This document shows, piece by piece, positions 34,594 to 64,000 of a DNA stretch of 64,000 bases. The DNA lies in the IMG/VR virus record IMGVR_UViG_2912740531_000001, positions 8,142-72,141 of that record; one strand, given 5' to 3'. A program made the position numbers and the translations under genes. This DNA comes from a virus (Duplodnaviria > Caudoviricetes). Each line of letters opens with the position of its first letter. Position 1 is the stretch's first letter. The notes under the pieces were generated by a model. That model was not told where the DNA came from, made no database searches, and worked only from the letters and a program-made list of their open reading frames with translations.

Positions 34594-34695
34594 TTGGGGT
34601 GCTCTCCCTGATGCTGGGGGCGGTTGACGTGCGTCGCTCGCCCGGCCAGCACCGGGACGCCTCAACGCGAGGCGGAATGGAAAGGGGAGACTGGG

Positions 34696-50783: not shown

Positions 50784-50809
50784 GCCGCGGACCATGCACA
50801 CCGGAGGTG

Positions 50810-51107: not shown

Positions 51108-53566
51108 TCCTTGGGGCCGGTGTCGTAGTGCAGGCGGCAACGGCAGTTGATGGTCAGGGCGATCGGAGCGAAGGGGTCGCCGGGGTACCGGAGCTGGGCG
51201 CCGTCGATCTCGTACGGGGTACCAACGGGCAGGGTTTTGCCGTGCAGTGCCTTGTGCGCGGGCCGTACGCGGTCGTCCTGGCGCGTGATCCACGTCCGGA
51301 CGACTCCGGGCCCGGCACTCTCCGCCGCGGCGTCAGCGGCCCCGTTGATGGTCGACACGGCGCACGTCTCCGCGATCCGTTCGACCCAGCCGAGTCCGGC
51401 GCGCTCGTAGAACCGGCCGACCGTCCGCTCCAGGTCCTCGAGCCTGAGCTCCGCCTCCGGGATGGTCTGGAGACTGCGCAGTTCCTCGGCCAGGTCGCCG
51501 AGCAGCGCGGCTACGGCCTGGCCGGCGTACAGCGCGGTGATGAGAGCAGAGGCGACGGCAGTCGAGGGAGCCGTGTCGGTGCCGGCGATGGCCTGGCCGA
51601 GCCTGCGGGCTGTGGTGGTCGCGGCCTGCTGCAGGATCGGGGCGAGGGTGTTCGTCGTCTCCTCTTCCCAGCGGGCCGCACTGACGACGCGGTCTTCGTC
51701 GATATTCGCGTCGCCGACCCGGGTGTCGTTCTCGTTCTCCGGCTCCCAGAACCGCGTGTACTTGCGGATCTTCGGCGCGCGGAGCCGGGCGATGATGACC
51801 CCCTGCTGGCGTGCCAGAAGCGCAGTGAGGGCTGCCTGTATGGCCATGGAGAGGGCGTCGAAGTCGGTGTCGGTGACCTCGAAGCCCTCGACGGGCAGTG
51901 CCTTGGTCTCGAGATGGGCGCGCGCCTTCTCGACGTCCTCGGCGGCGGGGCCGGACTCGGGCTGGATGGTGGTGGCGAGGGCACGCGCCACATCGCCGGC
52001 AGCGTCTCCCGGGGCGGCTTCGGTGACTTCGGCGCGCGCCGCGGCAACGTCATCGGCCGCGGTCAGGGCCGGGCCGGAAGGCAGCTCGAGGGGCGCCTGC
52101 CCGCGGGCCATGGCAACGTCGTCAGCGGCGGTCGGGGCCAGTTCGAGTGCGCGGGCCTCGGCGACCGCCGCGGCGGCGGACTGGTCCCCGCCTGCTGCGG
52201 GCAGTGCGGCGTTCGGGTCGGCTCCAAGGCCGCCGCCGGCACCGGGTTCCGGGGCGAGGCCGAGCGCGGCGGCGTCCTGGTCGTTGGCCGGGACGGGGGC
52301 CTTCTGCGGGCTGATCCACAGGGCGCGGGACTGAGGAACGTTGAACCTGGGGCGCCCGGCGATGTCGCGGTACTCGTCGATGGTGATCAGACCCGCCTCG
52401 AACTCCTTGCGGGCCTCCTCGCGGGCCTGACGGCGGGGGAACTCGAGGGCCTGCACACCGCTGGTGTCGAAGCGGATCACCCAGTCGTCGGACAGTTCCG
52501 GGTCGAACGCCGACGCGATGAGGTTGAGGTGGGGCAGTTCGGTGTGGTCCCAGAAGTTCCACTCTTCGCGGTCGGCGTTGTTGAACGTCCGCTCGGAGGC
52601 GTTTCCGATGACGCTCTCGTAGACGCCGAACGAGGAGAGGATCTCGTTCTTCGCAGTGCTGGACAGCGTCTCGTAGGCCATCTCTCGCGGGCGGGCGGAG
52701 GTGTCGACGTAGGTAACACCACCGGGTCCTGTCCCGACGAGGGTGAGCTGCCCGGCATTGTGCGCGCCCGGGGCGAGGCGCTTCTGGATTCGCTCGACTT
52801 CGTTGGCGTCGACGCCGTCCAGGTCGATGCCGACGATGCCGCCGGGGCGGCCGTCGTTGTCGATAAAGCTGATGTTGTATGTGCGGGCCTTCACGTCCAG
52901 GTCGACCGACAGCCCGGCGGCCTCGAGCGGGGTCACGCCGCAGAAAGGATCGGTCGGGTGTGGATCACGCAGCCAGATGACGTACTTCGGCTTGAGCTCC
53001 CGGATGCTCCCGTTGTAATCCGTGAACTCGAAGTGCTTCACGTAGCTGGCGTTCTCGTCGTCCGGGATGATCTGGACGCGATCCGGTGGTAGCAGGTCAA
53101 GCCTGACCAGGACTCCGCCGCGGCTGTAGGTCTTCTCGATGAACACGCCCTTTTTGCTGAGTAGCAACTGGGCGCTGAGTCGCTTCTTGAAGACGTCGCC
53201 GGTCTCCAAGGGGTTGGCCTGCTTGTTCAGCAGCTTCAACAGCGGGTGGTCCTGGAGGACTTCCTCGAACTGCCGCTCGTCGCCGCCGCGGCCGATCTGC
53301 ACCGGCAGGGTGGAGGCGTGCTTGCTGATCGCCTCGACGCTCTTGAAGGTCCAGATGGAGCGTTCGTAGCCCTCGATGATGACGCGCTCGAGGTCCCAGC
53401 CGTCCGCGCGGCCGGGGGTGCCCCACACGTTCGTGACGCCGGCGTACGACATGGACGTGTAGACGCCCCCGGCGAGGAGGTCCTTAGTCTCCGCGGGTGC
53501 GGACGGCGGCTCGGCTGTTCTGGGGGCGAGTAGCCCGCGGAGAGTGGGGAGGAACTGGCGGGGCAT
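51104..53566 (-). CDS. HK97-family portal protein fused to a C-terminal MuF-like domain
   Basis: HPLLKLLNKQANP, LLPPDRV, GVTPLEAA, ITIDEYR portal motifs; RTWITRQDDRVRPAH and NCRC MuF motif. Confidence 0.9.
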   Translation of the reverse strand: MPRQFLPTLRGLLAPRTAEPPSAPAETKDLLAGGVYTSMSYAGVTNVWGTPGRADGWDLERVIIEGYERSIWTFKSVEAISKHASTLPVQIGRGGDERQFEEVLQDHPLLKLLNKQANPLETGDVFKKRLSAQLLLSKKGVFIEKTYSRGGVLVRLDLLPPDRVQIIPDDENASYVKHFEFTDYNGSIRELKPKYVIWLRDPHPTDPFCGVTPLEAAGLSVDLDVKARTYNISFIDNDGRPGGIVGIDLDGVDANEVERIQKRLAPGAHNAGQLTLVGTGPGGVTYVDTSARPREMAYETLSSTAKNEILSSFGVYESVIGNASERTFNNADREEWNFWDHTELPHLNLIASAFDPELSDDWVIRFDTSGVQALEFPRRQAREEARKEFEAGLITIDEYRDIAGRPRFNVPQSRALWISPQKAPVPANDQDAAALGLAPEPGAGGGLGADPNAALPAAGGDQSAAAAVAEARALELAPTAADDVAMARGQAPLELPSGPALTAADDVAAARAEVTEAAPGDAAGDVARALATTIQPESGPAAEDVEKARAHLETKALPVEGFEVTDTDFDALSMAIQAALTALLARQQGVIIARLRAPKIRKYTRFWEPENENDTRVGDANIDEDRVVSAARWEEETTNTLAPILQQAATTTARRLGQAIAGTDTAPSTAVASALITALYAGQAVAALLGDLAEELRSLQTIPEAELRLEDLERTVGRFYERAGLGWVERIAETCAVSTINGAADAAAESAGPGVVRTWITRQDDRVRPAHKALHGKTLPVGTPYEIDGAQLRYPGDPFAPIALTINCRCRLHYDTGPKE

Positions 53567-53913
53567 CAGGCCCCCTCGGACTCACGGCCGGTGGTGAGCG
53601 CCAGGCCAGCCGCAGTCACTGCGAGGGCGACGCCGATCCAGCCGAGGGGCACGCATAGCGCGAACGCGCAGCCGGTCAGACCGCTGTAACCGACGCCAAC
53701 GGCTGTCCAGCGCAGGATGTGGGCAGCGCGTGAGGCGTCGGGCTTGGGGGCGATCAGCAGGCCCGTGGCGAGGATCCCGCCCATGGCGGCGGAGAGGCCT
53801 GCGGCCCAGTGGAGTGCGCCCAGCGCCACAAGGACACCGAGCACGCCGAAGGCGGTGAGGCACAGACCGGCGGCTTCGCGGGCGAGGGCCCTGGAGGTTC
53901 GCTGAGTAGTCAC
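53566..53913 (-). CDS. Small membrane protein upstream of the portal
   Basis: Four hydrophobic segments; start re-called at GTG 53913. Confidence 0.7.
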   Translation of the reverse strand: MTTQRTSRALAREAAGLCLTAFGVLGVLVALGALHWAAGLSAAMGGILATGLLIAPKPDASRAAHILRWTAVGVGYSGLTGCAFALCVPLGWIGVALAVTAAGLALTTGRESEGA

Positions 53914-53939
53914 GCCGCGCACCATGAACAGCGGGCGGC

Positions 53940-53951
53940 GCTAGTGTCGCG
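53940..53951 (-). promoter_or_regulatory. Phage promoter motif copy (CGCGACACTAGC-N13-CATGGT), probably leaderless
   Basis: GTG lies 7 nt after the -10 box; first promoter of the head module. Confidence 0.78.
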
Positions 53952-53957
53952 TGCTGC

Positions 53958-54482
53958 TCAGCGCTTGGGGCGGGAGACCCCGGACATGTAGGCGCTGATG
54001 CCGCGCCGGTTGATCGTGCCGCCGGGGATGATCCGCGCGTTGGGTGGCGGGGTGGGGATCTTCCGCTTCGCACGCTGGGTCTTGTCCCCGCCGATCAGAT
54101 GGCTATTGTCGATCTTGGCGGCGCAGTCATCGCCCTTGACCTCGTCGTACGGCCGACGGCAGCCCTTGCAATAGACCTCGAGCGCGTCGACGCGCTGTCC
54201 CTCGGTGGCTTTGAACGAGCCGCGGTAGTCGGCGACGCTCGCGATCTTCGGCGTGACCTCGACCTCGGCGGCCACAACCCAGACGTGGGAGAGGTCCGGC
54301 GCTTCGGGTTCGGCGGCGGGCTCCGATGGGGGAGTGGTCTGCTGCTCGGGTGTGGGCCCCGGCGTGGCGGCCGGGGGCGCGACCGGCTGGGAGTCCGGCT
54401 CGGGTTCGAGCCAGGCGAAAAGGCTGTCCTGCAGATGGGAGCGGCCGGTCTCGGGCGAGAGGGGGGCTGTCGCGGTCGTCAC
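53958..54482 (-). CDS. Hypothetical protein with possible zinc site
   Basis: RBS GGAGG; YCKGC with further C and H, and a basic C-terminus. Confidence 0.7.
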   Translation of the reverse strand: MTTATAPLSPETGRSHLQDSLFAWLEPEPDSQPVAPPAATPGPTPEQQTTPPSEPAAEPEAPDLSHVWVVAAEVEVTPKIASVADYRGSFKATEGQRVDALEVYCKGCRRPYDEVKGDDCAAKIDNSHLIGGDKTQRAKRKIPTPPPNARIIPGGTINRRGISAYMSGVSRPKR

Positions 54483-54501
54483 CGTTCCTCCGGATCACTG
54501 C

Positions 54502-54525
54502 GGGGTTGACGTAAAGTGCAACCCC
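54502..54525. promoter_or_regulatory. Operator-like inverted repeat GGGGTTG-N10-CAACCCC
   Basis: Just upstream of the RBS of 53958-54482. Confidence 0.4.
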
Positions 54526-54600
54526 CTTCACTGCCGGAACGCCAACGGCCGTGTTCTGTTACACCTGCAGCCCGACGCACCGGAGTGCGCCGGGCACATG

Positions 54601-55116
54601 TCATTGAGACGCGAGCTCGGCGGGATACGAATTCTGCACAACACCGTCTTCCAGGTAGACGGTCTCGTCGATGGCAAGTGCCTGCAGAGCGAAAAGGACC
54701 CGCGGCCTCGCCATAGTGGGCAGCCGGCTAATGACGACATCAGTGGGCAACACACGCAGCTCCCCACGCGGATCTCGGTAGGTGAGCGGGGTAACGTCAC
54801 CGCGGGACATGGAAGCGGTCGCGAGGACGTGTGTGATGACCTTCCGCCGCCGCATCTGCTTCTGGTCCAGCACGACGCGCCGCAGAACAGGGATTCCGCT
54901 CATTGCGCCACCTAGAACGTGCTGGGCTGCCTGCCACGGACTCTCTCCCACGTGGACGGCGTCGACGGGTAACACGATGCTGCCCAGGGTCTCGGCCACC
55001 AGCAAGCAATCAGCCCCGACCGGGACGAGGAGCTGAACGCCGACCACCGGCGGCCGCCAGTTCTCGTATCCACCGCGACGGCGTGCCGCAGGTATCGCAG
55101 CCGTGGCCGGCATCAC
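54601..55116 (-). CDS. Degenerate NUDIX-fold protein
   Basis: LPVDAVHVGESPWQAAQ resembles an eroded Nudix box; C-terminal TVYLEDG. Confidence 0.55.
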   Translation of the reverse strand: MMPATAAIPAARRRGGYENWRPPVVGVQLLVPVGADCLLVAETLGSIVLPVDAVHVGESPWQAAQHVLGGAMSGIPVLRRVVLDQKQMRRRKVITHVLATASMSRGDVTPLTYRDPRGELRVLPTDVVISRLPTMARPRVLFALQALAIDETVYLEDGVVQNSYPAELASQ

Positions 55117-55886
55117 GCCGGATCGCCTTGTACTGCGGCCACGATCTCATCGAGATGCCGCGGCTGGCTGGTGCTGGGAATGGGCACCACGTGCGGGCCC
55201 TGGCCCAGAAGCCAGTGCAGAGGAGCAGCGGGCCCGTACGCCCGAGCCAAGTTTCCGGCGGCGAGCGGCCTGTAGGCCACGTAAGGGATGCTGAGATCCT
55301 GACACACCTCCACGACGGGATCGTCGCGGTCGATCTTGTTGAGGACGTTCTGCACCGCGGCGACCGGCTGATCCTTGAGCACCCTGCCGAGGTCCTCGGG
55401 TGTGACCTTCGACAGGCCGATGTGCCCGATCTTCCCCTCGTCCTGCATGGCCTGCATGACGGCGATCTGGTCGTCGAGGGCCACCTCGGGGTCGATGCGG
55501 TGCAGGTAGCACAGCTCCAGCCGGTCGACCTTCAGGCGGCACAGGCTGGCCTCGACGCACGCTCGCAGGTAGAAGGGGTTGCCGAGGGGCACCCACTGGC
55601 CTGGAGCGGGGCGGACCAGTCCGACCTTCGTGGCGATCAGTACGTGTTCCGGGTACGGGTAGAGCGCGTCCCGGATCAGGTGCTCGACGGTGTGGGGGCC
55701 GTACGCGTCGGCGGTGTCGATGTGGCTGATGCCGTGGGTGTGCACGGCGTGGCGGAGGACGCTGAGCGCAGTGTCGCGGTCCGTGGGGTCGCCCCAGGTT
55801 CCGGGGCCGGTCAGGCGCATGGTGCCAAACCCGAGCCGGGACACCGTCTTCCCAGCGATGGTGATGGTGCCTGCGGGCGGAGTCAT
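55113..55886 (-). CDS. Aldo/keto reductase
   Basis: RLGFGTMRL, IDTADAYG, IATKVG, YLHRID, GKIGHIGLS. Confidence 0.92.
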   Translation of the reverse strand: MTPPAGTITIAGKTVSRLGFGTMRLTGPGTWGDPTDRDTALSVLRHAVHTHGISHIDTADAYGPHTVEHLIRDALYPYPEHVLIATKVGLVRPAPGQWVPLGNPFYLRACVEASLCRLKVDRLELCYLHRIDPEVALDDQIAVMQAMQDEGKIGHIGLSKVTPEDLGRVLKDQPVAAVQNVLNKIDRDDPVVEVCQDLSIPYVAYRPLAAGNLARAYGPAAPLHWLLGQGPHVVPIPSTSQPRHLDEIVAAVQGDPA

Positions 55887-56482
55887 ACCAGCGCCTCCTT
55901 CAGACAGCGCTCAACGGCGACGTTGACGGCGTGGGCGTGGCTGTCGGGGTCACTGGTCACTCGCTGGTGGGGGATGCCGTCGTCGGCCAGGAGGCGGTGC
56001 GCGTGCTGGTCGACGAGCTTGCGGTAGCGGGGGTCGTAGTCGTGGCTCGTGTCGACGGGCACTTCCTCGTCGAGCATGGTCGCGAACAGCAGGTCATACT
56101 TCGGCAGTTGCGTGGCGGCGAGCGCCAACAGGCGTTCGCGCTCAAGGCGGGGCGCAGTCCCCCCGCGGAACTCCAGCGCGGCGTGCCAGTAGGCGAGGGC
56201 ATCGTACGAGGCCCGGTCGACGAGGACGACTTCCGCGCCCAGGGCGAGCGCGGCGATCTCGTCGGCGACTCCCTGCGTGATGATCCACTCGGTGGACTGC
56301 GCGGTGTGGTGCTGCATCTTCGGCAGGCCGGCTTCCGCAGCGCGCTTGCCGAGTCGACCGGTGCGGGCCACGGTCATGCCGTGGCCGCGCAGCTCCATCT
56401 CGATGCGCTTCAGGAGCGTCGTCTTGCCGGTGGAATGCGTGCCGAGCACGCCGATCCGGATGGGCTGGTAGGAGGTCACCAC
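55883..56482 (-). CDS. P-loop kinase (AAA_28 / dNMP-kinase-like)
   Basis: IGVLGTHSTGKTT and VLVDRASYDALAY. Confidence 0.8.
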   Translation of the reverse strand: MVTSYQPIRIGVLGTHSTGKTTLLKRIEMELRGHGMTVARTGRLGKRAAEAGLPKMQHHTAQSTEWIITQGVADEIAALALGAEVVLVDRASYDALAYWHAALEFRGGTAPRLERERLLALAATQLPKYDLLFATMLDEEVPVDTSHDYDPRYRKLVDQHAHRLLADDGIPHQRVTSDPDSHAHAVNVAVERCLKEALV

Positions 56483-57078
56483 AGAGTCGGGTCCTTTTCT
56501 GGTTCAGGGGCACCGGGCAGGCCGGGCGGCACAGCCGCGGCGATCAACTGGTCCCAGGTCTCGTATCGGGAGGCCATGGCGATGAGGAGCTGGGCCGTGG
56601 CGAAGGCGTCGAACGTGGCCCTGTGCCGCTGGGCGGGGGCCTCGCTCAGGTCGGGCTGCAGGTGCTTGATGAGGGCGTCCAGGCCATAGCCGCCCAGGCC
56701 CGGGAAGGTCTTCTTGGCGAGCCGGAGCGTGTCGAGGACGCCGGCGGGCTCCCAGCCCGGCAGGTGCGCACGCAGCACGCCGTAGTCAACGTGTGCGTTG
56801 TGCGCACAGATCCAGGCCGTTCCCATGAAGGCGTGCACCTGGTCCGCGATCTCCGACCATGCCGGCTTGTCGGCCAAGTCCTTGTTCGACAAGCCGTGCA
56901 CGCGGGTGGCGAAGGCGGTGACCGGCCGGTTGGGGCGGGTGAGCCACGCCTTCGCGGTAGTCTTGTCGAGGCTGCCGTCCCGGACGGGCAGGGCTGCGAC
57001 CTCGACGAGATCGGGCGGCGTAGTGCCGTTGCCTTCGACGTCGACGACGAGCAGCGCGGGCCAGGTGCCGAAGTTCAT
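56476..57078 (-). CDS. DEDDh 3'-5' exonuclease family protein
   Basis: VVDVEG, AHNAHVD, DTLRLA, HRATFDA; start re-called at MNFGTW. Confidence 0.9.
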   Translation of the reverse strand: MNFGTWPALLVVDVEGNGTTPPDLVEVAALPVRDGSLDKTTAKAWLTRPNRPVTAFATRVHGLSNKDLADKPAWSEIADQVHAFMGTAWICAHNAHVDYGVLRAHLPGWEPAGVLDTLRLAKKTFPGLGGYGLDALIKHLQPDLSEAPAQRHRATFDAFATAQLLIAMASRYETWDQLIAAAVPPGLPGAPEPEKDPTLW

Positions 57079-58265
57079 GGTGTGTCGGTTCCGTTCTCCG
57101 CCTCCCAGCCGATGGGGGCCCGGCCGTGCTGGCGGTAGAGATGGGGATGCTCGCGGGCGTGGCACTGGAAGCCGAACCCGTGCTGCAGGAAGTAACGGGG
57201 CGGCTCGTCCAGTCCCTCGACGACGATTGCACGGTCATTGACCTCAACGGCGCCAACTGCCCCGAGGGCGCGCGCCGCGCGCTCGACGTCCGCCAACTCC
57301 GGCTTGTTCCATGCCTTCTGGCACAGAGCGATCTGCTCGGGCGGACAGATGTTGCACAGCTCGCGCACCCCGAAGTGGCCGTTGTAGTCGGCCTCTCCAT
57401 GGGCGTAGGCGACTCCGCAGCTCGTCTTGCGGAACAGTGCCCCCCAGGGCAGGCCACCGGGCAGCCGGCTCGCGTCGAAGGTGTCCAAGATGCGCTGCTC
57501 CGCCAGCTCCGGCATGATCTTGCGCCGGGCCGTGTCCTCGTACGGCATCGGCAGGCCGTGCGCCTCGTAATAGGCGGCGATCTCTTTCCGGAAGAACAGG
57601 CCCGTGAACACCGTGGCGTGTGCATGCAGCGACAGCTCGCGGGCCCGCTCGATGTGCTCGTCGGAGTCGTTGAGGCCCGGCACGATCGGCCGCCAGTAGT
57701 TCACGACCCGATAGCGTTCGGCGTGCTCGTGCAGCATGCGCAGGCTGTCCGCCGCGTACGTGGAGTTGACGGGCTCGATCGCGGGGTCGTCGATGCCGGA
57801 GTGGGTGACGAGCACGGTGAGCCGCAGGTTCTTGAAGGTGTTGAGGACGGCGCAGTCTTCGGCATCCACCCGCCACCGGGTGATGATCAGCACGTGGTTG
57901 GTCAGGCCCTGGTCGTCGAGGAGCTGCAGCACGCGGAAGACGTGTGGCTTGACGACCGGCAGCATTGGGTCGGTGGCCCGGTTCAGGAGCTGGATCGGTG
58001 TCTTGTGCGGGCGGAAGTATTGGTGGTCGACGAGCTGCTTCACGGCGTCCTCGTCGCTCATCAGGCGCCGCGGGGTCTTCATGCCGAAGTTGTCGAACAG
58101 GTGGCGGACGCAGTAGCCGCACTCCAGCGGGCAGCCGACGATGTGGTTCACCGACAGGCCCGACTTGCGGTACTCGATCACGTCGGCGAGCTCGGGTTTG
58201 AGTTCAGCTATCTGCGCGGGGGTCAGCAGGGGCAGTAAGCGGCGGGCCGCGACAGGAGCAGTCAC
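57075..58265 (-). CDS. Radical SAM protein (spore photoproduct lyase-like clade)
   Basis: GCPLECGYC (CxxxCxxC), ATDPM, RPIVPGLND; extra C-terminal cysteines. Confidence 0.85.
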   Translation of the reverse strand: MTAPVAARRLLPLLTPAQIAELKPELADVIEYRKSGLSVNHIVGCPLECGYCVRHLFDNFGMKTPRRLMSDEDAVKQLVDHQYFRPHKTPIQLLNRATDPMLPVVKPHVFRVLQLLDDQGLTNHVLIITRWRVDAEDCAVLNTFKNLRLTVLVTHSGIDDPAIEPVNSTYAADSLRMLHEHAERYRVVNYWRPIVPGLNDSDEHIERARELSLHAHATVFTGLFFRKEIAAYYEAHGLPMPYEDTARRKIMPELAEQRILDTFDASRLPGGLPWGALFRKTSCGVAYAHGEADYNGHFGVRELCNICPPEQIALCQKAWNKPELADVERAARALGAVGAVEVNDRAIVVEGLDEPPRYFLQHGFGFQCHAREHPHLYRQHGRAPIGWEAENGTDTP

Positions 58266-58290
58266 TAGAGCCTCCGGAGGCTGGGGGCGG

Positions 58291-59334
58291 TCAGCGGTTG
58301 GTGTGCGTGGGCTGGGGCGGAACACCGTTCGAGGTGAGGAGCAGGCGGCGGCCGGCGCCGAACCAGGTGCCGAGGTCCCGGCGGGCCGCATCCGCGTCGT
58401 CCGAGGTGTGAACCAGGTTGTGGACCAGGCGTTTCTCGGTGAGGGCGCGTTCGAGGCTGTCGTTGCCGAGGTCGCCGCGGATCGTGCCGGGCGCGGCGTG
58501 GGGCGGGTCGAAGTGGCCGATGAGCTGGCGCAGCCGGTTGTGGATGCCTGGTTCCCCGTAGGCGAGAGCGACTGTCACGGCCTTGCCCGCGTAGGCGTCG
58601 TCCAGGCAGGCGGGGATGTCTCGGTCGGGGAACCAGCCGCGGTCAACGAGGAGATCCCAGTAGTGCACGTTGGCCTGCCATGCCTGCACGATGACGTCCT
58701 GGCGGTTGGCGATGGTGCAGCCGGCGGACTCGATCCGCTTGAGTACGGCGTCCACCAGGCCGCGCTCGACCGCGTCCGGCTTGCACAGGACGACGGAACA
58801 GCGGTCGAAGTCGGAGACCTGCAGGGGGCGGCCGGACCCGTACCAGGTGCCGAACTCGTGGCGGGCGCCGGCCGGATCGTCACTGGTGTGGACGAGGTTC
58901 CGCACGAGTCGCTTCTCGGCGCGTGCAGCGGCGAGGCTGTCGTCCCCGAGGTCGCCGCGGATCGTGCCTGCCACCGCCCGGGTCGGGTCGGTGTGGCCGA
59001 TGAGCTGGCGCAGCCGTGCATGGAGGCCGGGTTCACCGTGCGCGAGGGCCACGGTGATCTGCCGACCGGTGTACGCGGCGTCGAGGTAGGCGGGCAGATC
59101 CAGTTCCCTGGGGGCGGTGTCGGCGAGGAGATTTCGGTAGACGACGTGCGGCTGCCACGGCTCGGCGATCAGGTCCAGGCGATTCGAGACGGTGAAGCCC
59201 GTGTCGGAGATCATCCCGAGTACGCGGTTGACGAGGCCGCGCGCCACGGCGTCCGGCTTGCACAGGATGACCGCCCAGCGCTCGAAGTCGACGCCTTCCA
59301 CCACGGCGCCGCTCATCGGCCTTCCGCCGCTCAC
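58291..59334 (-). CDS. ndk: Nucleoside diphosphate kinase, two tandem domains
   Basis: KPDAV, GTIRGDLG and NLVHTSD each occur twice. Confidence 0.9.
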   Translation of the reverse strand: MSGGRPMSGAVVEGVDFERWAVILCKPDAVARGLVNRVLGMISDTGFTVSNRLDLIAEPWQPHVVYRNLLADTAPRELDLPAYLDAAYTGRQITVALAHGEPGLHARLRQLIGHTDPTRAVAGTIRGDLGDDSLAAARAEKRLVRNLVHTSDDPAGARHEFGTWYGSGRPLQVSDFDRCSVVLCKPDAVERGLVDAVLKRIESAGCTIANRQDVIVQAWQANVHYWDLLVDRGWFPDRDIPACLDDAYAGKAVTVALAYGEPGIHNRLRQLIGHFDPPHAAPGTIRGDLGNDSLERALTEKRLVHNLVHTSDDADAARRDLGTWFGAGRRLLLTSNGVPPQPTHTNR

Positions 59335-60356
59335 TTAGCACCCCCGGCCGCAGCCGCCGCGCAGGCCGGCCACTTGCGTTCCATGAGCCAGCGCAGGCCG
59401 GGGTCGAGCGCGGCCAGGACGCCCGGGTCGAAGGCCATGGTCTGGTCGTGCTGGACCTGCCGGTACAGCTCGAACAGCATCAACACCTGCTGCCAGTACG
59501 GATCCAGGCCCAGGCCGCGGATGTGTTCGGCGCTGTAGCGGAGTTGGTTCGTGCGCAGCGCCTCTTCGTGCATAAGGACGTGCGCGATGGTCGCTCCCTC
59601 GGTGCCCGCTGGCATTGCCGGGAAAGCGAATGAGGGCACGGTGGGACGTGAGTCGGCCTCGGCCAGGACGCGCTTGACGCGCTCGGCGTTGCGGTCGTTG
59701 ACGTGGGCGGACCCGATGAAGTGCGTGTACGTGCCGAGCTCCAGGCCGAGCTGGATGGCCGCGTACTCCTGGATCATCGTGAAGGAGAAGACGTCAGACA
59801 GCAGGCCGCAGTCGAGATCGTTCGCGCGCATGTTGCAGACCACGTGCAGATGCCCGTCGCGCGGGAGCAGATGCAGGCCGGCCAAGCATGCGACGTCGGG
59901 GTTGTTGTGGTCGGCGAGTTCCTTCGCCTTGAACACCGGCAGGTAGCCGCGCTTGCTGTCGGGCTCGGTCAGCAGTAGCTCCATCACTTGGTCGAACTGC
60001 GACTGCTTGGTGCTGCCGTTCGTGCTGAACAGCGCGTGGCCGTACGCGGAACCGCCGAGGCGGATGCCGTCGACGCTGCTGGCGCGCATGGACGGGGCGT
60101 AGTAGCCGATCATGTCCAGGTCGCGGCGTCCAGCGAGGTACCAGAGCGCTTCGGCGAACTGGAACACCGGGTTCGCCTTGCGCTCGGCGATGTACGGCAG
60201 GCGCTGGCGGGGGTTGGTGAGGCGGAACCCTACGCCGATGACCTCGCGGGCGTCGTTGCCGCGGGCCGAGATGTGGTGTTCGGCATCCTCGGTGGCCAGC
60301 CGGAGCAGGGCCAGGTAGGCGCCTTCCACACTGGTGAACTCGGGGGTGGTGAGCAT
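59331..60356 (-). CDS. Thymidylate synthase-fold enzyme, probable (d)CMP hydroxymethylase
   Basis: AEALWYLAG, AYG, DSKR, catalytic DVAC, MRANDLDCGLLSD, YTHFIGSAHV; Asp at the Asn177-equivalent site; start re-called at MLTTPEF. Confidence 0.85.
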   Translation of the reverse strand: MLTTPEFTSVEGAYLALLRLATEDAEHHISARGNDAREVIGVGFRLTNPRQRLPYIAERKANPVFQFAEALWYLAGRRDLDMIGYYAPSMRASSVDGIRLGGSAYGHALFSTNGSTKQSQFDQVMELLLTEPDSKRGYLPVFKAKELADHNNPDVACLAGLHLLPRDGHLHVVCNMRANDLDCGLLSDVFSFTMIQEYAAIQLGLELGTYTHFIGSAHVNDRNAERVKRVLAEADSRPTVPSFAFPAMPAGTEGATIAHVLMHEEALRTNQLRYSAEHIRGLGLDPYWQQVLMLFELYRQVQHDQTMAFDPGVLAALDPGLRWLMERKWPACAAAAAGGAK

Positions 60357-60478
60357 GGGGCTCCAATCGAGGGGGGTGGTGTACCTGCGCCATGACCTGG
60401 GATCGGATGTCGTCCGGGCCGCCGGGCAGGGGGCCTGCCCCCGGCTGTGGTTGCGCACAGGGCGCCGGGGGCAGGTGT

Positions 60479-61129
60479 TCATGCGGTGCTGGGTCTGATC
60501 GCCTCGGGGTGCGGATCAATGGGCCGGTTCGTAACGGCGAAGACCAGGTGCAATGAGTGCCCCGGAGTATCAGGGGTGCTGACGTCGTGCTTCATGCCGT
60601 GCGGCAGAACCATCACGTCCCCTGCCCGCATCACGATCTCTTGCGGAGCGGCCTGGGCGATCGGCCAGACCAGCCACCGCTTCACGCCCGAGAACTGCAC
60701 GATCAGGCCCGTCCAGGCGTCATCGTGCGGGCCCAGGTTGCGATCACCCGCGAGCGATTCGTAGGCCGTGCAGACCACTTCGCGCCGCAGCAAGCCGGCC
60801 AGATAGAGCGTTGCCAGGCTGACCCAGCTATCGCTCCGCACATGCAGGCTCTCGTACACCCGGGTCCTCGGCCGGTCTAGGTGGCACCCGGCGACATCGT
60901 CCGCGTGGTCAGGGCGGACGAAGCCGTCGCCGTCGGCCAACGCCACCGTCTGGCCCGGCTGTCGCGCGTCCGCCAGCGGCAACCGCCGATCAGCGAGCCA
61001 CTCCGCAGTGAACACGCTCCTCTCGCATATGAGACGGTCGGGCGCGAGCAAGATCCCCTGCACAGCCGTCGCCCACAGCGGAGCGAGAAAGGTAGTGGCC
61101 GTCGCGAAGGGCGAGTTCAACGTCAACAT
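60479..61129 (-). CDS. JmjC/cupin 2OG-Fe(II) oxygenase-like protein
   Basis: LGPHDD, GVKRWLVW, AGDVMVLPHGMKH (HxD...H triad). Confidence 0.8.
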   Translation of the reverse strand: MLTLNSPFATATTFLAPLWATAVQGILLAPDRLICERSVFTAEWLADRRLPLADARQPGQTVALADGDGFVRPDHADDVAGCHLDRPRTRVYESLHVRSDSWVSLATLYLAGLLRREVVCTAYESLAGDRNLGPHDDAWTGLIVQFSGVKRWLVWPIAQAAPQEIVMRAGDVMVLPHGMKHDVSTPDTPGHSLHLVFAVTNRPIDPHPEAIRPSTA

Positions 61130-61485
61130 GACTCGTCCTTCTGGTTGGCCATGACGTACCAGTGCGTGCCGTCCTTCTTCATGCAGTTGCTTGCGCGCGC
61201 CAGCAACGCGTACGTGTTGAGGGCGTGGTCGCCGGGGTCGAGGACCTGCGTCGCGTGAAGCACGTCCGTCCTGTCCAGCTCGGACAGCTTGTGCGGCCGC
61301 AACTCCACCACACGCCGTTCCGTGTCGACCGACTGAACGAGAACCTCGTCCGGGGCGAGGTCCAGGTCGTGAGGCGTGTGCATGAGCCGGAAGGCACTTC
61401 CAGCGGGGTGCTGATCCAGCAACCGGCTGATCTCACGGAACAAGTCGGTCTGGTGCTCGACCAACGTGGGACCCGTAACAGTCAT
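61123..61485 (-). CDS. Hypothetical protein heading the oxygenase pair
   Basis: 120-aa ORF, RBS GGAG, stop overlaps the cupin start. Confidence 0.65.
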   Translation of the reverse strand: MTVTGPTLVEHQTDLFREISRLLDQHPAGSAFRLMHTPHDLDLAPDEVLVQSVDTERRVVELRPHKLSELDRTDVLHATQVLDPGDHALNTYALLARASNCMKKDGTHWYVMANQKDESC

Positions 61486-61757
61486 CTGCTACTTCTCCAT
61501 GGTGTTATGAAATGAGATGGGATGTTCGAGGCGTGGCGCCCGCCCGCCAGGGGGGGAGTCGGACGAGCGCCACGCCAATGCGGGCGTCCAGCTCTCGGGA
61601 GTGGCATTGCGAAATCACTGGACGATCGTTGCGGCCCGGCGTGAGGGAACAGTGCCTTGTGCTGTGAGGGAGCAGTCGGATTGGCTCCCCCGCGCCGGGG
61701 GTGGGTGCCTGCCCGATGACCGCAGGCCGGATGGGCACCGGGTCACCGGGCAGGGGT

Positions 61758-62240
61758 CTAGGCGGCCAAGTCGTCGCTGTACAGCGGTACGCCCAGGAGG
61801 CAATGTTCGATGCGGCGCAGGGCGTGGTCGACGGCGAGGTCGCCCACGTTGGCGCGCTCGACCCAGCGTGCTTCGCCCAGACCGCCGGCCTTGGTGACGG
61901 CCGGCTCGACGTCGTCAGGGATGTCAACCCGGTAGACGTAGTTGGTGCCTTCGCGGTGCTGTCCCGGCTGCTCTGGGACGTGGTCGACGATGACCATGCG
62001 ACCGGCCGTCGCCCGAAGGGTCAGCCTCTCGGCGAGCAGGCGGCTGAGGGCGCGCCGGGGAAGTTCGTTTGCGGCTGCTGAACCTCCCGGCAGGCCCCAC
62101 TCGGAGACGGCGGCCCTGTACGGACGGCTGACCATGAGAACCTGTGTGCCCCTGGTGATGAGGGCGAGGGCCCCCACGCGGCGGGGTGGGGGGTCCTGGA
62201 ACCAGTCTCGTGCCTCTTCGTCCCGTGTCTCTTCGGGCAT
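61758..62240 (-). CDS. NUDIX-fold protein with degenerate Nudix box
   Basis: RRVGALALI and WGLPGG but no RExxEE; start re-called at MPEETR. Confidence 0.7.
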   Translation of the reverse strand: MPEETRDEEARDWFQDPPPRRVGALALITRGTQVLMVSRPYRAAVSEWGLPGGSAAANELPRRALSRLLAERLTLRATAGRMVIVDHVPEQPGQHREGTNYVYRVDIPDDVEPAVTKAGGLGEARWVERANVGDLAVDHALRRIEHCLLGVPLYSDDLAA

Positions 62241-62363
62241 GACGCTCCCTGGTCTCGATGATGACGGTGGTAGGCCCACTACGGCAGTCCGACAACTGCC
62301 GCACCGGGGTTGGTGCCTGCCTGGTGGCCTCATGCCGAACGTCATGGGTTACCGGACAGAGGT

Positions 62364-63050
62364 CTAGGCGGCGTCCCTCCACTTGGCCTCTTCTGCGGCC
62401 ATCGCGCGCAACTCCTCTGGAGACACGGCTTTGACCCCGTGAAGGCTGACGACGGTGAAGTTGGCCAGCGTCCAGCGGATTTCCTTATCGCCGACGTGGA
62501 CGTGCTGAAGATCGCCAGGCCGGGAGCCAGGACTGGGAAGAGGAGCCAGCGTCACCGGGTCGTGGACTACCCCGGCCACACCCCAGAGCGGGTTGTACTC
62601 AACGAGCGCGGCAGCGTGCCCCCGCCCGAGGGGAGGGCAATTCTCGATCGCCTCCACCGCGCAGAGAGGATGCACGGGCGGTGCGGCGGTGGTCTCCCCT
62701 TCGGCGATCGGGGTCGCGGCACCCACCAGGTGAAGCGTGCGCTCGTCATCGGCCCGCCACCCGAGCGCAGTGTCTCCGCACACCTGGCACAGGCTGTACC
62801 GCACGGCACGCTTCTGGCGGTGCGTATTTATCCGGTTGAAGTCCGGCCGGCCACGGCCCTGGGCAAGGCCGGAGCGCACCCACAGTGCCTCGTGGCGCCG
62901 GTCGGTCACCGGGTGCTCGTCCTCGTAGCCGATGCCCTCGCCGCCGCGTCCGACAATCCGGATGACGGGCGGCTGGGGCAGGACCTCCCCGGTCCACGCG
63001 GTGATGTACGGGACGCGCGTGCCGTTCCAATAGTGCTGTTGTTGCGTCAT
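62364..63050 (-). CDS. Hypothetical Cys/His protein
   Basis: VPYITAW, LCQVCG, PPVHPLCA; ATGA overlap with the upstream gene. Confidence 0.75.
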   Translation of the reverse strand: MTQQQHYWNGTRVPYITAWTGEVLPQPPVIRIVGRGGEGIGYEDEHPVTDRRHEALWVRSGLAQGRGRPDFNRINTHRQKRAVRYSLCQVCGDTALGWRADDERTLHLVGAATPIAEGETTAAPPVHPLCAVEAIENCPPLGRGHAAALVEYNPLWGVAGVVHDPVTLAPLPSPGSRPGDLQHVHVGDKEIRWTLANFTVVSLHGVKAVSPEELRAMAAEEAKWRDAA

Positions 63051-64000
63051 GGCTCCACCACCCCCGGGGGAAGCACCGCGCACACGGTCTTGCCGGAGCC
63101 ATCGTGGTGCAGGAACCAGCCGAGCATGGCCCCCAACTCCGCGACCCTCCGAAGGCCTCGCCCCTTTTCTCCTCGGGCTGCGGCTGTGAAGTCTGGGAAT
63201 GACGGATTGCGGTCGGACACGTCGATGAGGAGATCGCCCGCTTCGTCTACGGCGGCACGCACGAAGATTGTCTGCGTCTCCGCGTGGTCAGGCAGTCCAT
63301 GACGTACTCCGTTGTCAACAAGACGGGTGAGCACCTCCTCGGCTTGGAGAATGGCACCCACCCAACCGAGCGCGGGAAGGCAGTAGCGGATCCACATCCG
63401 TCCAGCTCTCAGGGCAGAGGTACTGCCGGGCAGTTCAGTCTGCAAGGCGGTAACGATCGGCGATGTCTGTACTGCTACTAGACGGTTTGCCCCAACATCC
63501 TGGACGGGCGGCTGCACTGTGCGAAGGAGCTGCGGCAGCGCCCGGTAGACCATGCTGGCCTGGGTGGGCGCTCCGCCGAGCAACTTCCGGGCGTGCGCGG
63601 CAATGTCGTCAACTTCCCAGATCGACACCTGGAGTTCGTCCAACGCGTACTGCTTCTGCGTCCTGCCGCGGGCCAGCGCCTGGATGTAGTGGAGGACGTC
63701 AGGAGGAAGCCAACCGGTGTCTTCAGGGTCTGGAACATCAAGAGCCCCATGGACACGCGCGCGGAAGATGAGTTCTGGTAGGCGCCCGTGCGACTGGCTG
63801 CGTTCGGCGCCGAGCTTCTTCGCCACCGCGGACCACATTCTTCCCAGGCCGGCCGCAGGAATGCGGTGCTTCTCCTCAGACAGCTTCTCCGTGATCCCCG
63901 AACTTCGAAGGCCGAGCGCTGCTAGTGCGAGCGCACGCCGTTCCGGCAGAGATAGAGACACGGCATCCGCTGGTAATTCGGGACGTACGAGGATCGTCAC
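63047..64000 (-). CDS. HTH-like plus HATPase_c (RsbW-like) ATP-binding regulator; 5' end at or beyond the window edge
   Basis: LTRLVDNGVRHG, IDVSD, GRGL, GKTV motifs in the C-terminal third. Confidence 0.7.
   Translation of the reverse strand: MTILVRPELPADAVSLSLPERRALALAALGLRSSGITEKLSEEKHRIPAAGLGRMWSAVAKKLGAERSQSHGRLPELIFRARVHGALDVPDPEDTGWLPPDVLHYIQALARGRTQKQYALDELQVSIWEVDDIAAHARKLLGGAPTQASMVYRALPQLLRTVQPPVQDVGANRLVAVQTSPIVTALQTELPGSTSALRAGRMWIRYCLPALGWVGAILQAEEVLTRLVDNGVRHGLPDHAETQTIFVRAAVDEAGDLLIDVSDRNPSFPDFTAAARGEKGRGLRRVAELGAMLGWFLHHDGSGKTVCAVLPPGVVEP

What the first reader, a model, noticed from the sequence alone, without database searches (positions are those of the whole stretch)
54601..61485. 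Nine-gene modified-cytosine nucleotide pathway beside the phage head genes
Seen: a minus-strand run, mostly joined by overlapping start/stop codons: unknown, JmjC oxygenase, TS-fold enzyme, double NDK, radical SAM, DEDDh nuclease, P-loop kinase, aldo-keto reductase, NUDIX-like. Known: TS-fold enzymes modify pyrimidine C5 at the monophosphate level, and NMP kinase plus NDK raise products to triphosphates. Inference: this is a full route from (d)CMP to a tailored triphosphate, with radical, redox and oxygenase steps and two sanitising or self-protection enzymes. It could supply a new DNA base to the phage, or make a toxic or chain-terminating nucleotide for antiviral defence (viperin-like logic). 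No DNA polymerase or glycosyltransferase is present in the window, unlike T4-type hmC systems, which makes the free-nucleotide option credible. I do not recognise this combination as a characterised system.
Basis: partly seen in the sequence, partly recalled or inferred. Interest (0 to 1): 0.92.

Follow-up and report, generated by a model that had tools for sequence, protein, structure and literature searches.

The report
Mobile modified-cytidine nucleotide gene cassette
A prophage in a Streptomyces-type chromosome carries a widespread but uncharacterised gene cassette that probably makes an unusual cytidine nucleotide for conflicts with other viruses, rather than a new base for the phage's own DNA.

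Summary
The nine minus-strand genes exist as described and are tightly coupled (7 of 8 junctions overlap by 4 or 7 nt). They are not one nine-gene unit, though.

- **Conserved cassette.** It has seven genes: a MilA-like CMP 5-hydroxymethylase, NDK, an uncharacterised radical SAM enzyme, a DEDDh exonuclease, a nucleoside/nucleotide-kinase-fold protein, an aldo-keto reductase and a degenerate NUDIX-like protein.
- **Co-occurrence.** In 80 actinomycete loci chosen by the radical SAM gene, the exonuclease was present in 80, the kinase in 71, NDK in 63, MilA in 62, AKR in 55 and g9 in 32. JmjC and its small partner were in 0, and a portal gene in 1.
- **Wider spread.** The radical SAM–exonuclease–kinase core also sits on alphaproteobacterial plasmids beside CBASS, an anti-phage dGTPase, TIR and toxin–antitoxin genes; a Nostoc plasmid has the radical SAM gene and the AAA ATPase, with no exonuclease annotated.
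- **Cultured phages.** The radical SAM and kinase proteins gave no match.

Best reading (0.45): a mobile conflict module that makes a modified cytidine ribonucleotide, with a possibly clamp-tethered exonuclease as self-protection. The product is unknown. This scan noted the same module before on other DNA.

The parts
59331..60356 (-). MilA-like CMP 5-hydroxymethylase (TS fold). The ORF could also start at 60482.
   Evidence: PDB 5jnh E 9.1e-76 and 5b6d E 1.2e-74; the next best TS is 1.2e-10 and T4 dCMP hydroxymethylase 7.1e-5. Over 62 sequences: Cys155, Lys133, Asp186 and His216 in 62/62; Ala176 as 58 A and 4 G; Tyr218 never Tyr.
58291..59334 (-). Tandem (double) nucleoside diphosphate kinase
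   Evidence: PF00334 E 6e-35 with two stretches. An HTSD motif is conserved in both halves. NDK found in 63/80 loci.
57075..58265 (-). Uncharacterised radical SAM enzyme with a CxxxCxxC motif and four further conserved Cys
   Evidence: Invariant C44, C48, C51, C282, C303 and C306; C314 at 90% or more. AF2 pLDDT 91.7. Best folds: spore photoproduct lyase Z 16.1 and PFL-AE Z 15.7. No PDB sequence match.
56476..57078 (-). DEDDh 3'-5' exonuclease with a conserved extreme C-terminal tail ending in Leu-Trp
   Evidence: RNase_T E 1.8e-17. Exo I-III motifs conserved. Adjacent to the radical SAM gene in 80/80 loci. Tail ending conserved in 84 of 85 loci.
55883..56482 (-). Nucleoside/nucleotide-kinase-fold P-loop protein (AAA_28)
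   Evidence: PF13521 E 5e-11. AF2 pLDDT 92.4. NadR RNK domain Z 16.3/16.1, thymidylate kinases Z 14.4-16.0. Found in 71/80 loci.
55113..55886 (-). Aldo-keto reductase
   Evidence: PF00248 E 2e-47. Found in 55/80 loci. Also follows the triad on Gluconobacter and Nocardia plasmids.
54601..55116 (-). g9, a probable divergent NUDIX-fold protein with a degenerate Nudix box
   Evidence: No Pfam, PHROG or NCBIfam match. Profile against PDB gives NUDIX entries from E 0.013. ESM features give NUDIX at 0.93. Found in 32/80 loci.
60479..61129 (-). Small JmjC/cupin Fe(II)/2OG oxygenase; a lineage-specific add-on, not part of the conserved cassette
   Evidence: JmjC_2 E 1.8e-9. HxD...H aligned to MINA53. 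Found in 0/80 loci. Short-type homologues in 5 of 300 other genus genomes; in the 3 with 20 kb fetched, no cassette gene was nearby.
61123..61485 (-). g1, 120 aa, no family; conserved partner upstream of the JmjC gene
   Evidence: The g1-then-JmjC order recurs in L090, L091, L092, L094 and L100.
61486..61757 (-). 272-nt intergenic region upstream of the run; likely promoter region (inference)
   Evidence: Gap measured. The sigma-70 consensus scan found nothing.

Best explanation
The conserved part is a seven-gene mobile accessory cassette carried as cargo near the integrase-proximal end of a roughly 75-kb prophage.

Its invariant core is a radical SAM enzyme of an uncharacterised family, a DEDDh exonuclease and a nucleoside/nucleotide-kinase-fold protein. 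Actinomycete versions add a MilA-like CMP 5-hydroxymethylase with an NDK, an aldo-keto reductase and a NUDIX-like protein.

Proposed mechanism (all steps inferred):
1. CMP is hydroxymethylated at C5.
2. The product is raised to the di- and triphosphate by the kinase and the NDK.
3. The radical SAM enzyme alters the nucleotide, most likely on the sugar. This may leave a carbonyl that the AKR reduces. In alphaproteobacteria an HD phosphohydrolase takes the fourth place instead.
4. The product poisons nucleic-acid synthesis by competing phages or other mobile elements.
5. The exonuclease, whose C-terminal tail resembles beta-clamp-binding motifs, trims the analogue from DNA made by the host replisome. 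That protects the host and the polymerase-less prophage.

Shown here: family assignments, gene coupling, co-occurrence, mobility and defence-island neighbours. Inferred: substrate order, the chemistry of the radical SAM step, clamp binding and antiviral function.
For: **Co-occurrence and fixed order.**
- In 80 loci: exonuclease 80/80, kinase 71, NDK 63, MilA 62, AKR 55.
- The radical SAM gene and the exonuclease are together in all 8 viral contigs found.

**Rosetta-stone fusions.**
- Radical SAM + RNase_T (P0152).
- TIR + radical SAM (P0259).

**Mobility.**
- 36 plasmid records match: 18 Streptomyces, plus Rhizobiales, Gluconobacter, Nostoc and Nocardia.
- 19 of 300 other genomes of the genus carry it, some as fragments.

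**Defence-type neighbours on annotated plasmids.**
- CBASS genes and TcmP/DUF5131 in S. meliloti.
- Anti-phage dGTPase, GIY-YIG, WYL and TIR genes in A. vitis.
- ABC-three-component system and VapC in Rhizobium.
- N6 methylase in Labrenzia.
- Toxin-antitoxin pairs.

**Nucleotide chemistry.**
- MilA homology, E 9.1e-76, with the ribo-type Lys/Ala signature.
- The kinase fold matches NadR-RNK, TMPK and dNK.
- NDK is present.
- The fourth gene is either an HD-domain protein or an AKR. This parallels OxsB/OxsA plus the missing aldehyde reductase of oxetanocin biosynthesis.

**Exonuclease tail.**
- 84 of 85 loci end in LW, LF or DL.
- One tail ends QLTLDL.
- Alphaproteobacterial tails end Q-x-S/N-F/L-L.
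- The mycobacterial ImuB clamp motif is QLPLWG.

**Absence from cultured phages and from the element's replication genes.**
- No radical SAM or kinase match in 50,697 cultured-phage records.
- No family-A DNA polymerase in or near the element.
Against: - No product, substrate or phenotype is known.
- The radical SAM enzyme's nearest fold is spore photoproduct lyase, which acts on DNA. It may act on a polymer rather than a free nucleotide.
- 18 of 80 loci lack MilA, so 5-hydroxymethylation is not essential to the core.
- PADLOC gave no match for the radical SAM enzyme, the kinase, MilA, NDK or AKR. It also found no known defence gene among 10 flanking proteins of this window, apart from a weak NUDIX candidate match at E 3.1e-6.
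- The actinomycete flanks are mostly regulators and unknowns. The defence-island evidence comes from 9 hand-inspected plasmid contexts, not a statistical test.
- In this window the run is co-oriented with, and immediately upstream of, late morphogenesis genes. That would also fit lytic-cycle expression.
- Clamp binding rests on motif resemblance only. An SSB-tail-like reading of the acidic C-terminus is equally open.
Confidence: 0.45

Rival explanations
1. Phage DNA hypermodification. The cassette supplies a 5-hydroxymethylcytosine-derived nucleotide that is built into the prophage's own DNA during lytic growth, protecting it from restriction.
For: - TS-family hydroxymethylase plus kinases is the classic phage route to modified pyrimidines (recalled for T4; passages of PMC5175136).
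- Here, and in 2 of the 5 viral contigs and 1 of 80 genome loci, the cassette abuts the portal gene.
- It is co-oriented with the late genes.
- NUDIX genes that could cleanse the pool lie nearby.
Against: - The Lys133/Ala176 signature is the ribo-type. Reversal to dCMP needs Ser/Arg.
- The same cassette sits on plasmids and on loci with no portal within 10 kb.
- No family-A polymerase is in the element.
- No aGPT-Pplase/AADT or glycosyltransferase is among the nine proteins.
- No cultured phage carries the radical SAM enzyme or the kinase.
- The core occurs without the hydroxymethylase in 18 of 80 loci.
Confidence: 0.15
2. Nucleic-acid-directed system. The SPL-like radical SAM enzyme acts on DNA or RNA, either repairing or modifying the cell's own polymer or damaging or unmasking modified phage DNA. 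The exonuclease and the P-loop protein process the polymer ends.
For: - Spore photoproduct lyase is the top fold match, Z 16.1.
- JGI names the family 'DNA repair photolyase'.
- The exonuclease tail looks like a replisome-tethering motif.
- A radical SAM enzyme acting on DNA bases is known in phage M6 (passages of PMC8989533).
Against: - PFL-AE is tied with SPL (Z 15.7), so the fold match is generic.
- The kinase resembles small-molecule nucleoside/nucleotide kinases, not polynucleotide kinases.
- MilA, NDK, AKR and HD partners all point to free nucleotides.
Confidence: 0.15
3. Small nucleoside natural-product cluster. The cassette makes an exported 5-hydroxymethylcytosine-type nucleoside antibiotic, as in mildiomycin or bacimethrin biosynthesis.
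For: - The closest characterised enzyme is MilA of mildiomycin biosynthesis.
- Neighbours on a Streptomyces plasmid are named 'natural product biosynthesis' DUF6415 and DUF6193 proteins.
- A divergent HTH regulator recurs upstream in 33 loci.
Against: - No MilB-type hmCMP N-glycosidase, transporter or sugar-tailoring gene is among the nine proteins.
- The core occurs in Rhizobiales, Gluconobacter and Nostoc plasmids among defence and toxin-antitoxin genes.
- An always-present exonuclease is not typical of such clusters.
Confidence: 0.1
4. Counter-defence cargo. Mobile elements use the module to overcome host immunity, for example by altering or removing nucleotide signals or by making their replication insensitive to nucleotide depletion.
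For: - It is carried by prophages and conjugative plasmids.
- NDK, kinase and NUDIX-like genes could rebalance pools.
Against: - It sits among defence genes rather than in anti-defence loci.
- The TIR fusion is typical of immune effectors.
- It was not found in cultured lytic phages.
Confidence: 0.07

Closest known systems
MilA, CMP 5-hydroxymethylase of mildiomycin biosynthesis (Streptomyces rimofaciens; PDB 5jnh, 5b6d)
   Same: - Full-length sequence match, E 9.1e-76.
- Keeps the catalytic Cys155, Glu68, the cytosine-specifying Asp186 and the ribo-preference pair Lys133/Ala176.
   Different: - Tyr218, which binds the 2'-OH of CMP in MilA, is never Tyr here: N 40, G 16, C 3, A 3 of 62.
- No MilB glycosidase and no other mildiomycin genes are present.
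- It is embedded in a radical SAM/exonuclease/kinase cassette on mobile elements.
Prokaryotic viperins (pVips) and viperin/CMPK2: radical SAM enzymes that make ddh-nucleotide chain terminators (recalled)
   Same: The logic is shared: a radical SAM enzyme sits next to nucleotide kinases, on mobile or defence loci, with cytidine nucleotides as the likely substrate.
   Different: - It is a different radical SAM family. Viperin scores only Z 13.2, against 16.1 for SPL.
- PADLOC gives no match.
- It has extra conserved Cys (C282, C303, C306 invariant; C314 at 90% or more).
- It always has a DEDDh exonuclease partner, with optional hydroxymethylase, NDK, AKR or HD genes.
Oxetanocin A pathway: OxsB radical SAM + OxsA HD phosphohydrolase + an unidentified aldehyde reductase
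   Same: - A radical SAM enzyme acts on nucleoside phosphates together with an HD-domain protein and a needed carbonyl reduction (passages of PMC7074753).
- Here HD or AKR genes follow the triad.
   Different: - OxsB is cobalamin-dependent. No B12 domain was detected here.
- The likely substrate is cytidine, not deoxyadenosine.
- The resemblance is by analogy only, not homology.
T4-type hmC pathway: dCMP hydroxymethylase gp42, dNMP kinase, host NDK, dCTPase, glucosyltransferases (recalled)
   Same: A TS-fold cytosine C5 hydroxymethylase is followed by phosphorylation to the triphosphate.
   Different: - The match to T4 dCMP hydroxymethylase is only E 7.1e-5.
- The sugar-specificity residues are ribo-type.
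- No glycosyltransferase is among the nine proteins, and no family-A polymerase is in the element.
- The cassette is also found outside phages.
Phage thymidine hypermodification clusters: 5-HMUDK + aGPT-Pplase/AADT with or without radical SAM, PLP or FAD enzymes
   Same: They combine a TS-family hydroxymethylase, a P-loop kinase and a radical SAM enzyme (passages of PMC8989533).
   Different: - No aGPT-Pplase/AADT or PLP enzyme is present.
- The radical SAM and kinase proteins have no tblastn match in the cultured-phage collection.
- The enzyme is cytosine-type, not uracil-type.

Membership tests
MilA/BcmA-type CMP 5-hydroxymethylase (TS superfamily) | Full-length homology to MilA with the catalytic Cys and Glu | tested here: met
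   5jnh E 9.1e-76 over residues 46-381. Cys155 in 62/62 and Glu68 in 61/62.
MilA/BcmA-type CMP 5-hydroxymethylase (TS superfamily) | Cytosine-specifying Asp186 in place of the TS Asn | tested here: met
   Asp in 62/62. The rule comes from PMC5175136.
MilA/BcmA-type CMP 5-hydroxymethylase (TS superfamily) | Ribo-preference pair Lys133/Ala176 (Arg/Ser in deoxy-specific enzymes) | tested here: met
   Lys in 62/62; Ala 58 and Gly 4, never Ser.
MilA/BcmA-type CMP 5-hydroxymethylase (TS superfamily) | Tyr218, which hydrogen-bonds the ribose 2'-OH | tested here: not met
   Never Tyr: N 40, G 16, C 3, A 3 of 62. The sugar pocket therefore differs from MilA.
Mildiomycin/bacimethrin-type nucleoside antibiotic cluster | A MilB/BcmB hmCMP N-glycosidase next to the hydroxymethylase | tested here: not met
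   None of the nine proteins matched such a family in Pfam at E up to 0.1.
T4-type hmC DNA pathway | Deoxy-specific hydroxymethylase (Ser/Arg) with glycosyltransferase and the phage's own polymerase | tested here: not met
   Residues are Ala/Lys. No glycosyltransferase among the nine proteins. PF00476 hits lie only at 2.64 and 9.52 Mb. Other polymerase families and a dCTPase were not searched.
Prokaryotic viperin (pVip) | Radical SAM enzyme of the viperin family | tested here: inconclusive
   No PADLOC match at E up to 0.01 (that PADLOC holds pVip models is recalled). Viperin Z 13.2 is below SPL at 16.1 and PFL-AE at 15.7.
Radical SAM superfamily | CxxxCxxC cluster motif on a partial TIM barrel | tested here: met
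   C44, C48 and C51 are invariant in 39 sequences. PF04055 matches 21 of 39 members. Fold matches reach Z 16.
Spore photoproduct lyase | SPL-specific radical-relay Cys/Tyr residues and a DNA-binding hairpin | not tested
   Only an overall fold match: Z 16.1, rmsd 3.7, 254 aligned, 11% identity.
DEDDh (DnaQ/RNase T) exonuclease | Exo I DxE, Exo II D, Exo III Hx4D | tested here: met
   The motifs VVDVEGNG, AHNAxxD and HRAxxDA are conserved at 90% or more in 86 sequences. RNase_T E 1.8e-17.
Beta-clamp-binding proteins | A functional clamp-binding motif that binds DnaN | not testable with these tools
   The C-terminal tail is conserved in 84 of 85 loci. One tail ends QLTLDL, and alphaproteobacterial tails end Q-x-S/N-F/L-L.
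Phage thymidine hypermodification cluster | aGPT-Pplase/AADT together with a 5-HMUDK | tested here: not met
   No such Pfam family among the nine proteins. The kinase has no tblastn match in cultured phages.
NUDIX hydrolase (g9) | Nudix box GX5EX7REUXEEXGU | tested here: not met
   No PF00293 match. The consensus lacks the REUXEE glutamates. The fold-level link is weak.

The most novel reading that the evidence does not exclude
A viperin-independent, radical-SAM-based immune pathway. It would convert CMP, via 5-hydroxymethyl-CTP, into a sugar-modified nucleotide that blocks polymerases. An obligatory exonuclease tethered to the beta clamp would excise the poison from host-replisome DNA, giving toxin-immunity logic at the level of a nucleotide. 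The pathway would be spread by prophages and plasmids across several phyla.
Probability: 0.25. Interest if true: 0.9.

Novelty: new variant of a known kind. Interest (0 to 1): 0.72.

Why it matters
- **A possible second antiviral radical SAM route.** If the cassette makes an antiviral or anti-replicon nucleotide, it would be a second radical-SAM route to such molecules, unrelated to viperin. It would come with a built-in self-protection enzyme.
- **A new nucleoside analogue.** It would be a source of a new 5-substituted cytidine analogue.
- **An unassigned family gets a testable role.**
  - The radical SAM family spans 649 clusters at 50% identity.
  - At least 381 relatives were found in one-genome-per-species contigs.
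  - The family has no assigned function.
  - Its fixed pairing with an exonuclease offers a concrete genetic test: is the rest of the cassette toxic without the exonuclease?
- **An annotation lesson.** A gene run that looks like part of a phage's head region can be portable cargo.

Tried and rejected
**Tried without result**
- DNA search of the 6.9-kb run against cultured phages gave only a 59-bp chance-like hit.
- phmmer of the radical SAM enzyme against PDB sequences gave 0 matches at E up to 1.
- phmmer and a profile of the kinase against PDB gave only P-loop-level hits.
- The sigma-70 promoter and terminator scan of 53000-64000 found nothing above shuffles: 0 promoters, and 4 terminators against 3.9 expected, all on the + strand.
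- RNA-seq: no RNA holder was listed.
- TerL_ATPase (PF03354) was not found anywhere in the genome. The terminase of this element remains unidentified.
- Pfam on 10 ORFs right of the window gave only GGACT, PIN_12 and pentapeptide repeats.

**Literature.** No paper describing this gene combination was found.
- 'radical SAM' + hydroxymethylase + 'nucleoside diphosphate kinase' + Streptomyces: 0 papers.
- 'radical SAM', DEDDh, anti-phage and 'thymidylate synthase', 3 of 4 terms: 3 papers. I read passages of one (PMC10853773), which were not relevant. The other two were judged by title and abstract only.
- 5-hydroxymethylcytidine, 'radical SAM', triphosphate and defense, 3 of 4 terms: 106 papers with 20 listed, none on this module by title or abstract.
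- 'CMP hydroxymethylase' + phage + Streptomyces: 3 papers, all on MilA, MilB or T4.
- Papers read as passages only: PMC5175136, PMC10853773, PMC10421592, PMC8989533, PMC7074753. Supplements were not opened. Their supplementary alignments and gene tables could bear on the residue rules and on phage clusters.

**Rejected readings**
- A nine-gene unit, because JmjC and g1 were found in 0 of 80 loci.
- Membership of the viperin, OxsB, thymidine-hypermodification or T4 systems (see the membership tests).

**Method caveat.** My GC3-based ORF caller produced antisense shadow ORFs (families f5, f8, f9, f17, f20). These were ignored. The co-occurrence counts rest on tblastn at E 1e-6, which can miss divergent genes.

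Full report
**Setting.** The window is bases 3,963,087-4,027,086 of a single-contig, 9.96-Mb, high-GC chromosome.
- Named close relatives of its proteins are from Streptomyces.
- The minus strand from about 12 to 61.5 kb carries a phage morphogenesis arm:
  - capsid, 33298-34665;
  - a prohead protease fused to NUDIX, 34818-36758;
  - a 4,250-aa ORF with no Pfam family, 38049-50801;
  - a portal-MuF fusion, 51104-53566.
- The plus-strand genes at 4.5-9 kb include an IstB/DnaC-like protein, a DUF2637 protein and an AAA_24 protein.
- Tyrosine-recombinase matches lie about 8 kb left of the window and at about 68.2-68.6 kb in window coordinates. The latter is a partial match.
- This suggests an element of roughly 75 kb, the size of the related IMG/VR contig.
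- No family-A DNA polymerase lies in or near it.

**The observation.**
- Junction distances are -7, -4, -4, +25, -4, -7, -4 and -4 nt. The run is bounded by 272-nt and 118-nt gaps, so it looks like one translationally coupled transcription unit.
- There are two corrections.
  - The MilA-like gene probably starts at the internal ATG at 60356. That start has a GGAG upstream, and homologues are about 340 aa. This would open a 122-nt gap after the JmjC gene.
  - The ninth gene is NUDIX-like only at fold level, by weak evidence (E 0.013; ESM features). It lacks the catalytic Nudix glutamates.

**What is conserved.** I took the radical SAM protein as the probe because it is the least common family.
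- It belongs to a large unnamed family.
  - 649 clusters at 50% identity match at E up to 0.001.
  - 2,040 of 8,000 scored candidates match at E up to 1e-5. Their names are only 'radical SAM protein' or, from JGI, 'DNA repair photolyase'.
I analysed the best 80. They come from Streptomyces, Kitasatospora, Actinacidiphila, Streptacidiphilus, Planobispora, Streptosporangium, Kribbella, Nocardia, Crossiella, Kibdelosporangium and Actinophytocola, plus three uncultured Actinomycetota bins.
- By tblastn at E 1e-6 the neighbours, always in the same order, were:

| Gene | Loci of 80 |
|---|---|
| exonuclease | 80 |
| kinase | 71 |
| NDK | 63 |
| MilA-like | 62 |
| AKR | 55 |
| g9 | 32 |
| x239 | 12 |
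| NUDIX195 | 4 |
| g10 | 4 |
| portal | 1 |
| JmjC | 0 |
| g1 | 0 |

- All eight IMG/VR contigs found hold the radical SAM gene next to the exonuclease.
- Only two of the five contigs have the portal next to the cassette.

**The JmjC pair.** JmjC and g1 form a separate pair.
- Short JmjC homologues occur in 5 of 300 other genomes of the genus.
- A g1 homologue lies directly upstream in four of those five genomes.
- An x239 homologue lies upstream in two of them.
- In the three genomes where I fetched 20 kb, no cassette gene lay in the fetched region.
- The JmjC_2 family is known to me as protein hydroxylases (recalled). I therefore do not count it as a nucleotide-tailoring step.

**Mobility and neighbours.**
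- In the genus, 19 of 300 other genomes carry the radical SAM gene, several as fragments or frameshifted copies.
- Thirty-six plasmid records match it: 18 Streptomyces, 1 Nocardia, 16 Alphaproteobacteria and 1 Nostoc.
- I read nine annotated plasmid contexts:

| Plasmid host | Module | Neighbours |
|---|---|---|
| S. meliloti pSymA | radical SAM-exonuclease-AAA-HD | patatin / DncV-like / ThiF CBASS set on one side, TcmP/DUF5131 on the other |
| A. vitis | triad | 'anti-phage deoxyguanosine triphosphatase', GIY-YIG nuclease, WYL protein, TIR protein |
| Rhizobium | triad + HD | VapC and an ABC-three-component system |
| Labrenzia | triad + HD | large N6 methylase |
| Mesorhizobium | triad | integrase, VapBC and a nucleotidyltransferase-fold protein upstream; a DEAD/DEAH helicase downstream |
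| Gluconobacter | triad + AKR | toxin-antitoxin pair |
| Nostoc | radical SAM + AAA | toxin-antitoxin pair, integrase |
| Streptomyces NBC_01544 | full seven-gene order | integrase, MazE/Doc, GNAT, HTH regulator |
| Nocardia | split radical SAM, exonuclease, AAA, AKR | no clear defence neighbours |

- The actinomycete chromosomal flanks are mostly regulators and unknowns. A divergent HTH-TPR-like protein of about 450 aa recurs in 33 loci.
- PADLOC found nothing convincing in this window's own flank.
- In cultured phages the radical SAM and kinase proteins have no match. The hydroxymethylase matches only distant pyrimidine hydroxymethylases, at 36% identity or less.
- Two fusions in the family point the same way: TIR + radical SAM, and radical SAM + RNase_T.

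**The enzymes.**
- **Hydroxymethylase.**
  - It is a close MilA relative (E 9.1e-76, against 7.1e-5 for T4 dCMP hydroxymethylase).
  - The MilA structure paper shows three things (passages). Asp186 marks cytosine enzymes. Lys133/Ala176 mark ribo-preferring enzymes. The A176S/K133R mutant reverses the preference to dCMP.
  - In 62 cassette sequences Asp186 and Lys133 are invariant, position 176 is Ala (58) or Gly (4), and Tyr218 is always replaced.
  - CMP, or a cytidine nucleotide with an altered sugar, is therefore the favoured substrate.
- **Kinase.** The model (pLDDT 92.4) is closest to the NadR ribosylnicotinamide kinase domain (Z 16.3, rmsd 3.2, 178 aligned) and to thymidylate kinases.
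- **NDK.** It keeps its His motif in both halves. 25 of the 85 loci gave a match covering at least 60% of the tandem form.
- **Radical SAM enzyme.**
  - The model has pLDDT 91.7.
  - C282, C303 and C306 are invariant and C314 is conserved at 90% or more, in addition to the SAM-cluster cysteines. This suggests a second metal site.
  - Its best folds are spore photoproduct lyase (Z 16.1) and PFL-activating enzyme (Z 15.7), with viperin at 13.2. This does not decide the substrate.
- **Exonuclease.**
  - It has intact DEDDh motifs.
  - After a Pro-rich linker it has an acidic tail ending in Leu-Trp in most actinomycete loci. 84 of 85 loci end in LW, LF or DL.
  - One distant viral version ends QLTLDL. 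Six alphaproteobacterial versions end Q-x-S/N-F/L-L.
  - These resemble beta-clamp-binding motifs. The pentapeptide and hexapeptide consensus is recalled. The mycobacterial ImuB motif QLPLWG is documented.
  - An SSB-tail-like role is an alternative.
I could test it only by motif conservation.

**Mechanism.**
- Shown: a portable, translationally coupled module whose parts are nucleotide enzymes, plus an exonuclease that never leaves the radical SAM enzyme.
- Inferred:
  - CMP goes to hmCMP, then to the di- and triphosphate.
  - A radical step on the sugar follows.
  - Reduction by the AKR, or dephosphorylation by the HD protein in other lineages, completes the product.
- The pairing of a radical SAM enzyme with an HD protein or a reductase mirrors oxetanocin biosynthesis, where the aldehyde reductase is unidentified. 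From memory, it also mirrors the AprD4/AprD3 and cordycepin deoxygenation logic.
- The exonuclease would remove the analogue from 3' ends made by the clamp-using host replisome. This prophage, which has no family-A polymerase gene (other polymerase families were not searched), would share that protection.
- I put 0.45 on the general statement and about 0.25 on the full chain-terminator-plus-immunity version.

**Comparison and novelty.**
- The module is not a member of the T4, mildiomycin, thymidine-hypermodification, viperin or oxetanocin systems (see the membership tests). It works most like the viperin and oxetanocin logic.
- I found no paper on it.
- This scan had already noted the same module on other DNA (e1-5766674, e1-5766683, e1-4223879). 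My results agree with those notes.
- My results add the following:
  - the actinomycete seven-gene form;
  - the residue survey of the hydroxymethylase;
  - the kinase fold;
  - the TIR fusion;
  - the separation of the JmjC pair.
- I class it as a new variant of a known kind (nucleotide-based conflict systems), with interest 0.72.

Noticed in passing
window 38049-50801 (-): A 4,250-aa ORF lies between the portal-MuF gene and the prohead protease. It has GC3 of 0.88 and no Pfam family at E up to 0.001. Homologous 'giant' ORFs follow the portal in related contigs (family f47 in L006 and L030).
   Followed up: partly
window 34818-36758 (-): A prohead serine protease (Peptidase_S78) is fused to a NUDIX domain with a good Pfam match (E 6.7e-16). 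This would be a packaged or capsid-associated Nudix enzyme.
   Followed up: no
window 60479-63083 (-); L101 10686-12910: x239, g1 (sometimes duplicated) and a small JmjC oxygenase form a recurrent module of unknown function. It occurs without the nucleotide cassette nearby in other genomes of the genus.
   Followed up: partly
proteins P0259, P0152, P0220: Members of the same radical SAM family are fused to a TIR domain, to an RNase_T exonuclease, or to a family-2 glycosyltransferase.
   Followed up: partly
L007 10631-12523 (+), about window 74.6-76.5 kb: A 630-aa pentapeptide-repeat protein sits in a low-GC patch (0.55-0.63). A PIN_12 protein lies at L007 13543-15003 (-). Together they suggest a further foreign island to the right of the element.
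   Followed up: no
whole genome G000: No TerL_ATPase (PF03354) match was found anywhere in the genome, and no terminase was recognised next to the portal. The packaging enzyme of this element is unidentified.
   Followed up: partly
L104, L109, L112 (plasmids of Labrenzia, S. meliloti, Rhizobium): In Alphaproteobacteria a 476-478-aa HD-domain protein takes the fourth position of the module, where actinomycetes and Gluconobacter have an aldo-keto reductase.
   Followed up: no
window 61758-62345 (-): A canonical NUDIX gene lies upstream of the run and outside the finding. It is conserved next to the cassette in only 4 of 80 loci and gives a weak PADLOC candidate match (PDC-S07, E 3.1e-6).
   Followed up: partly
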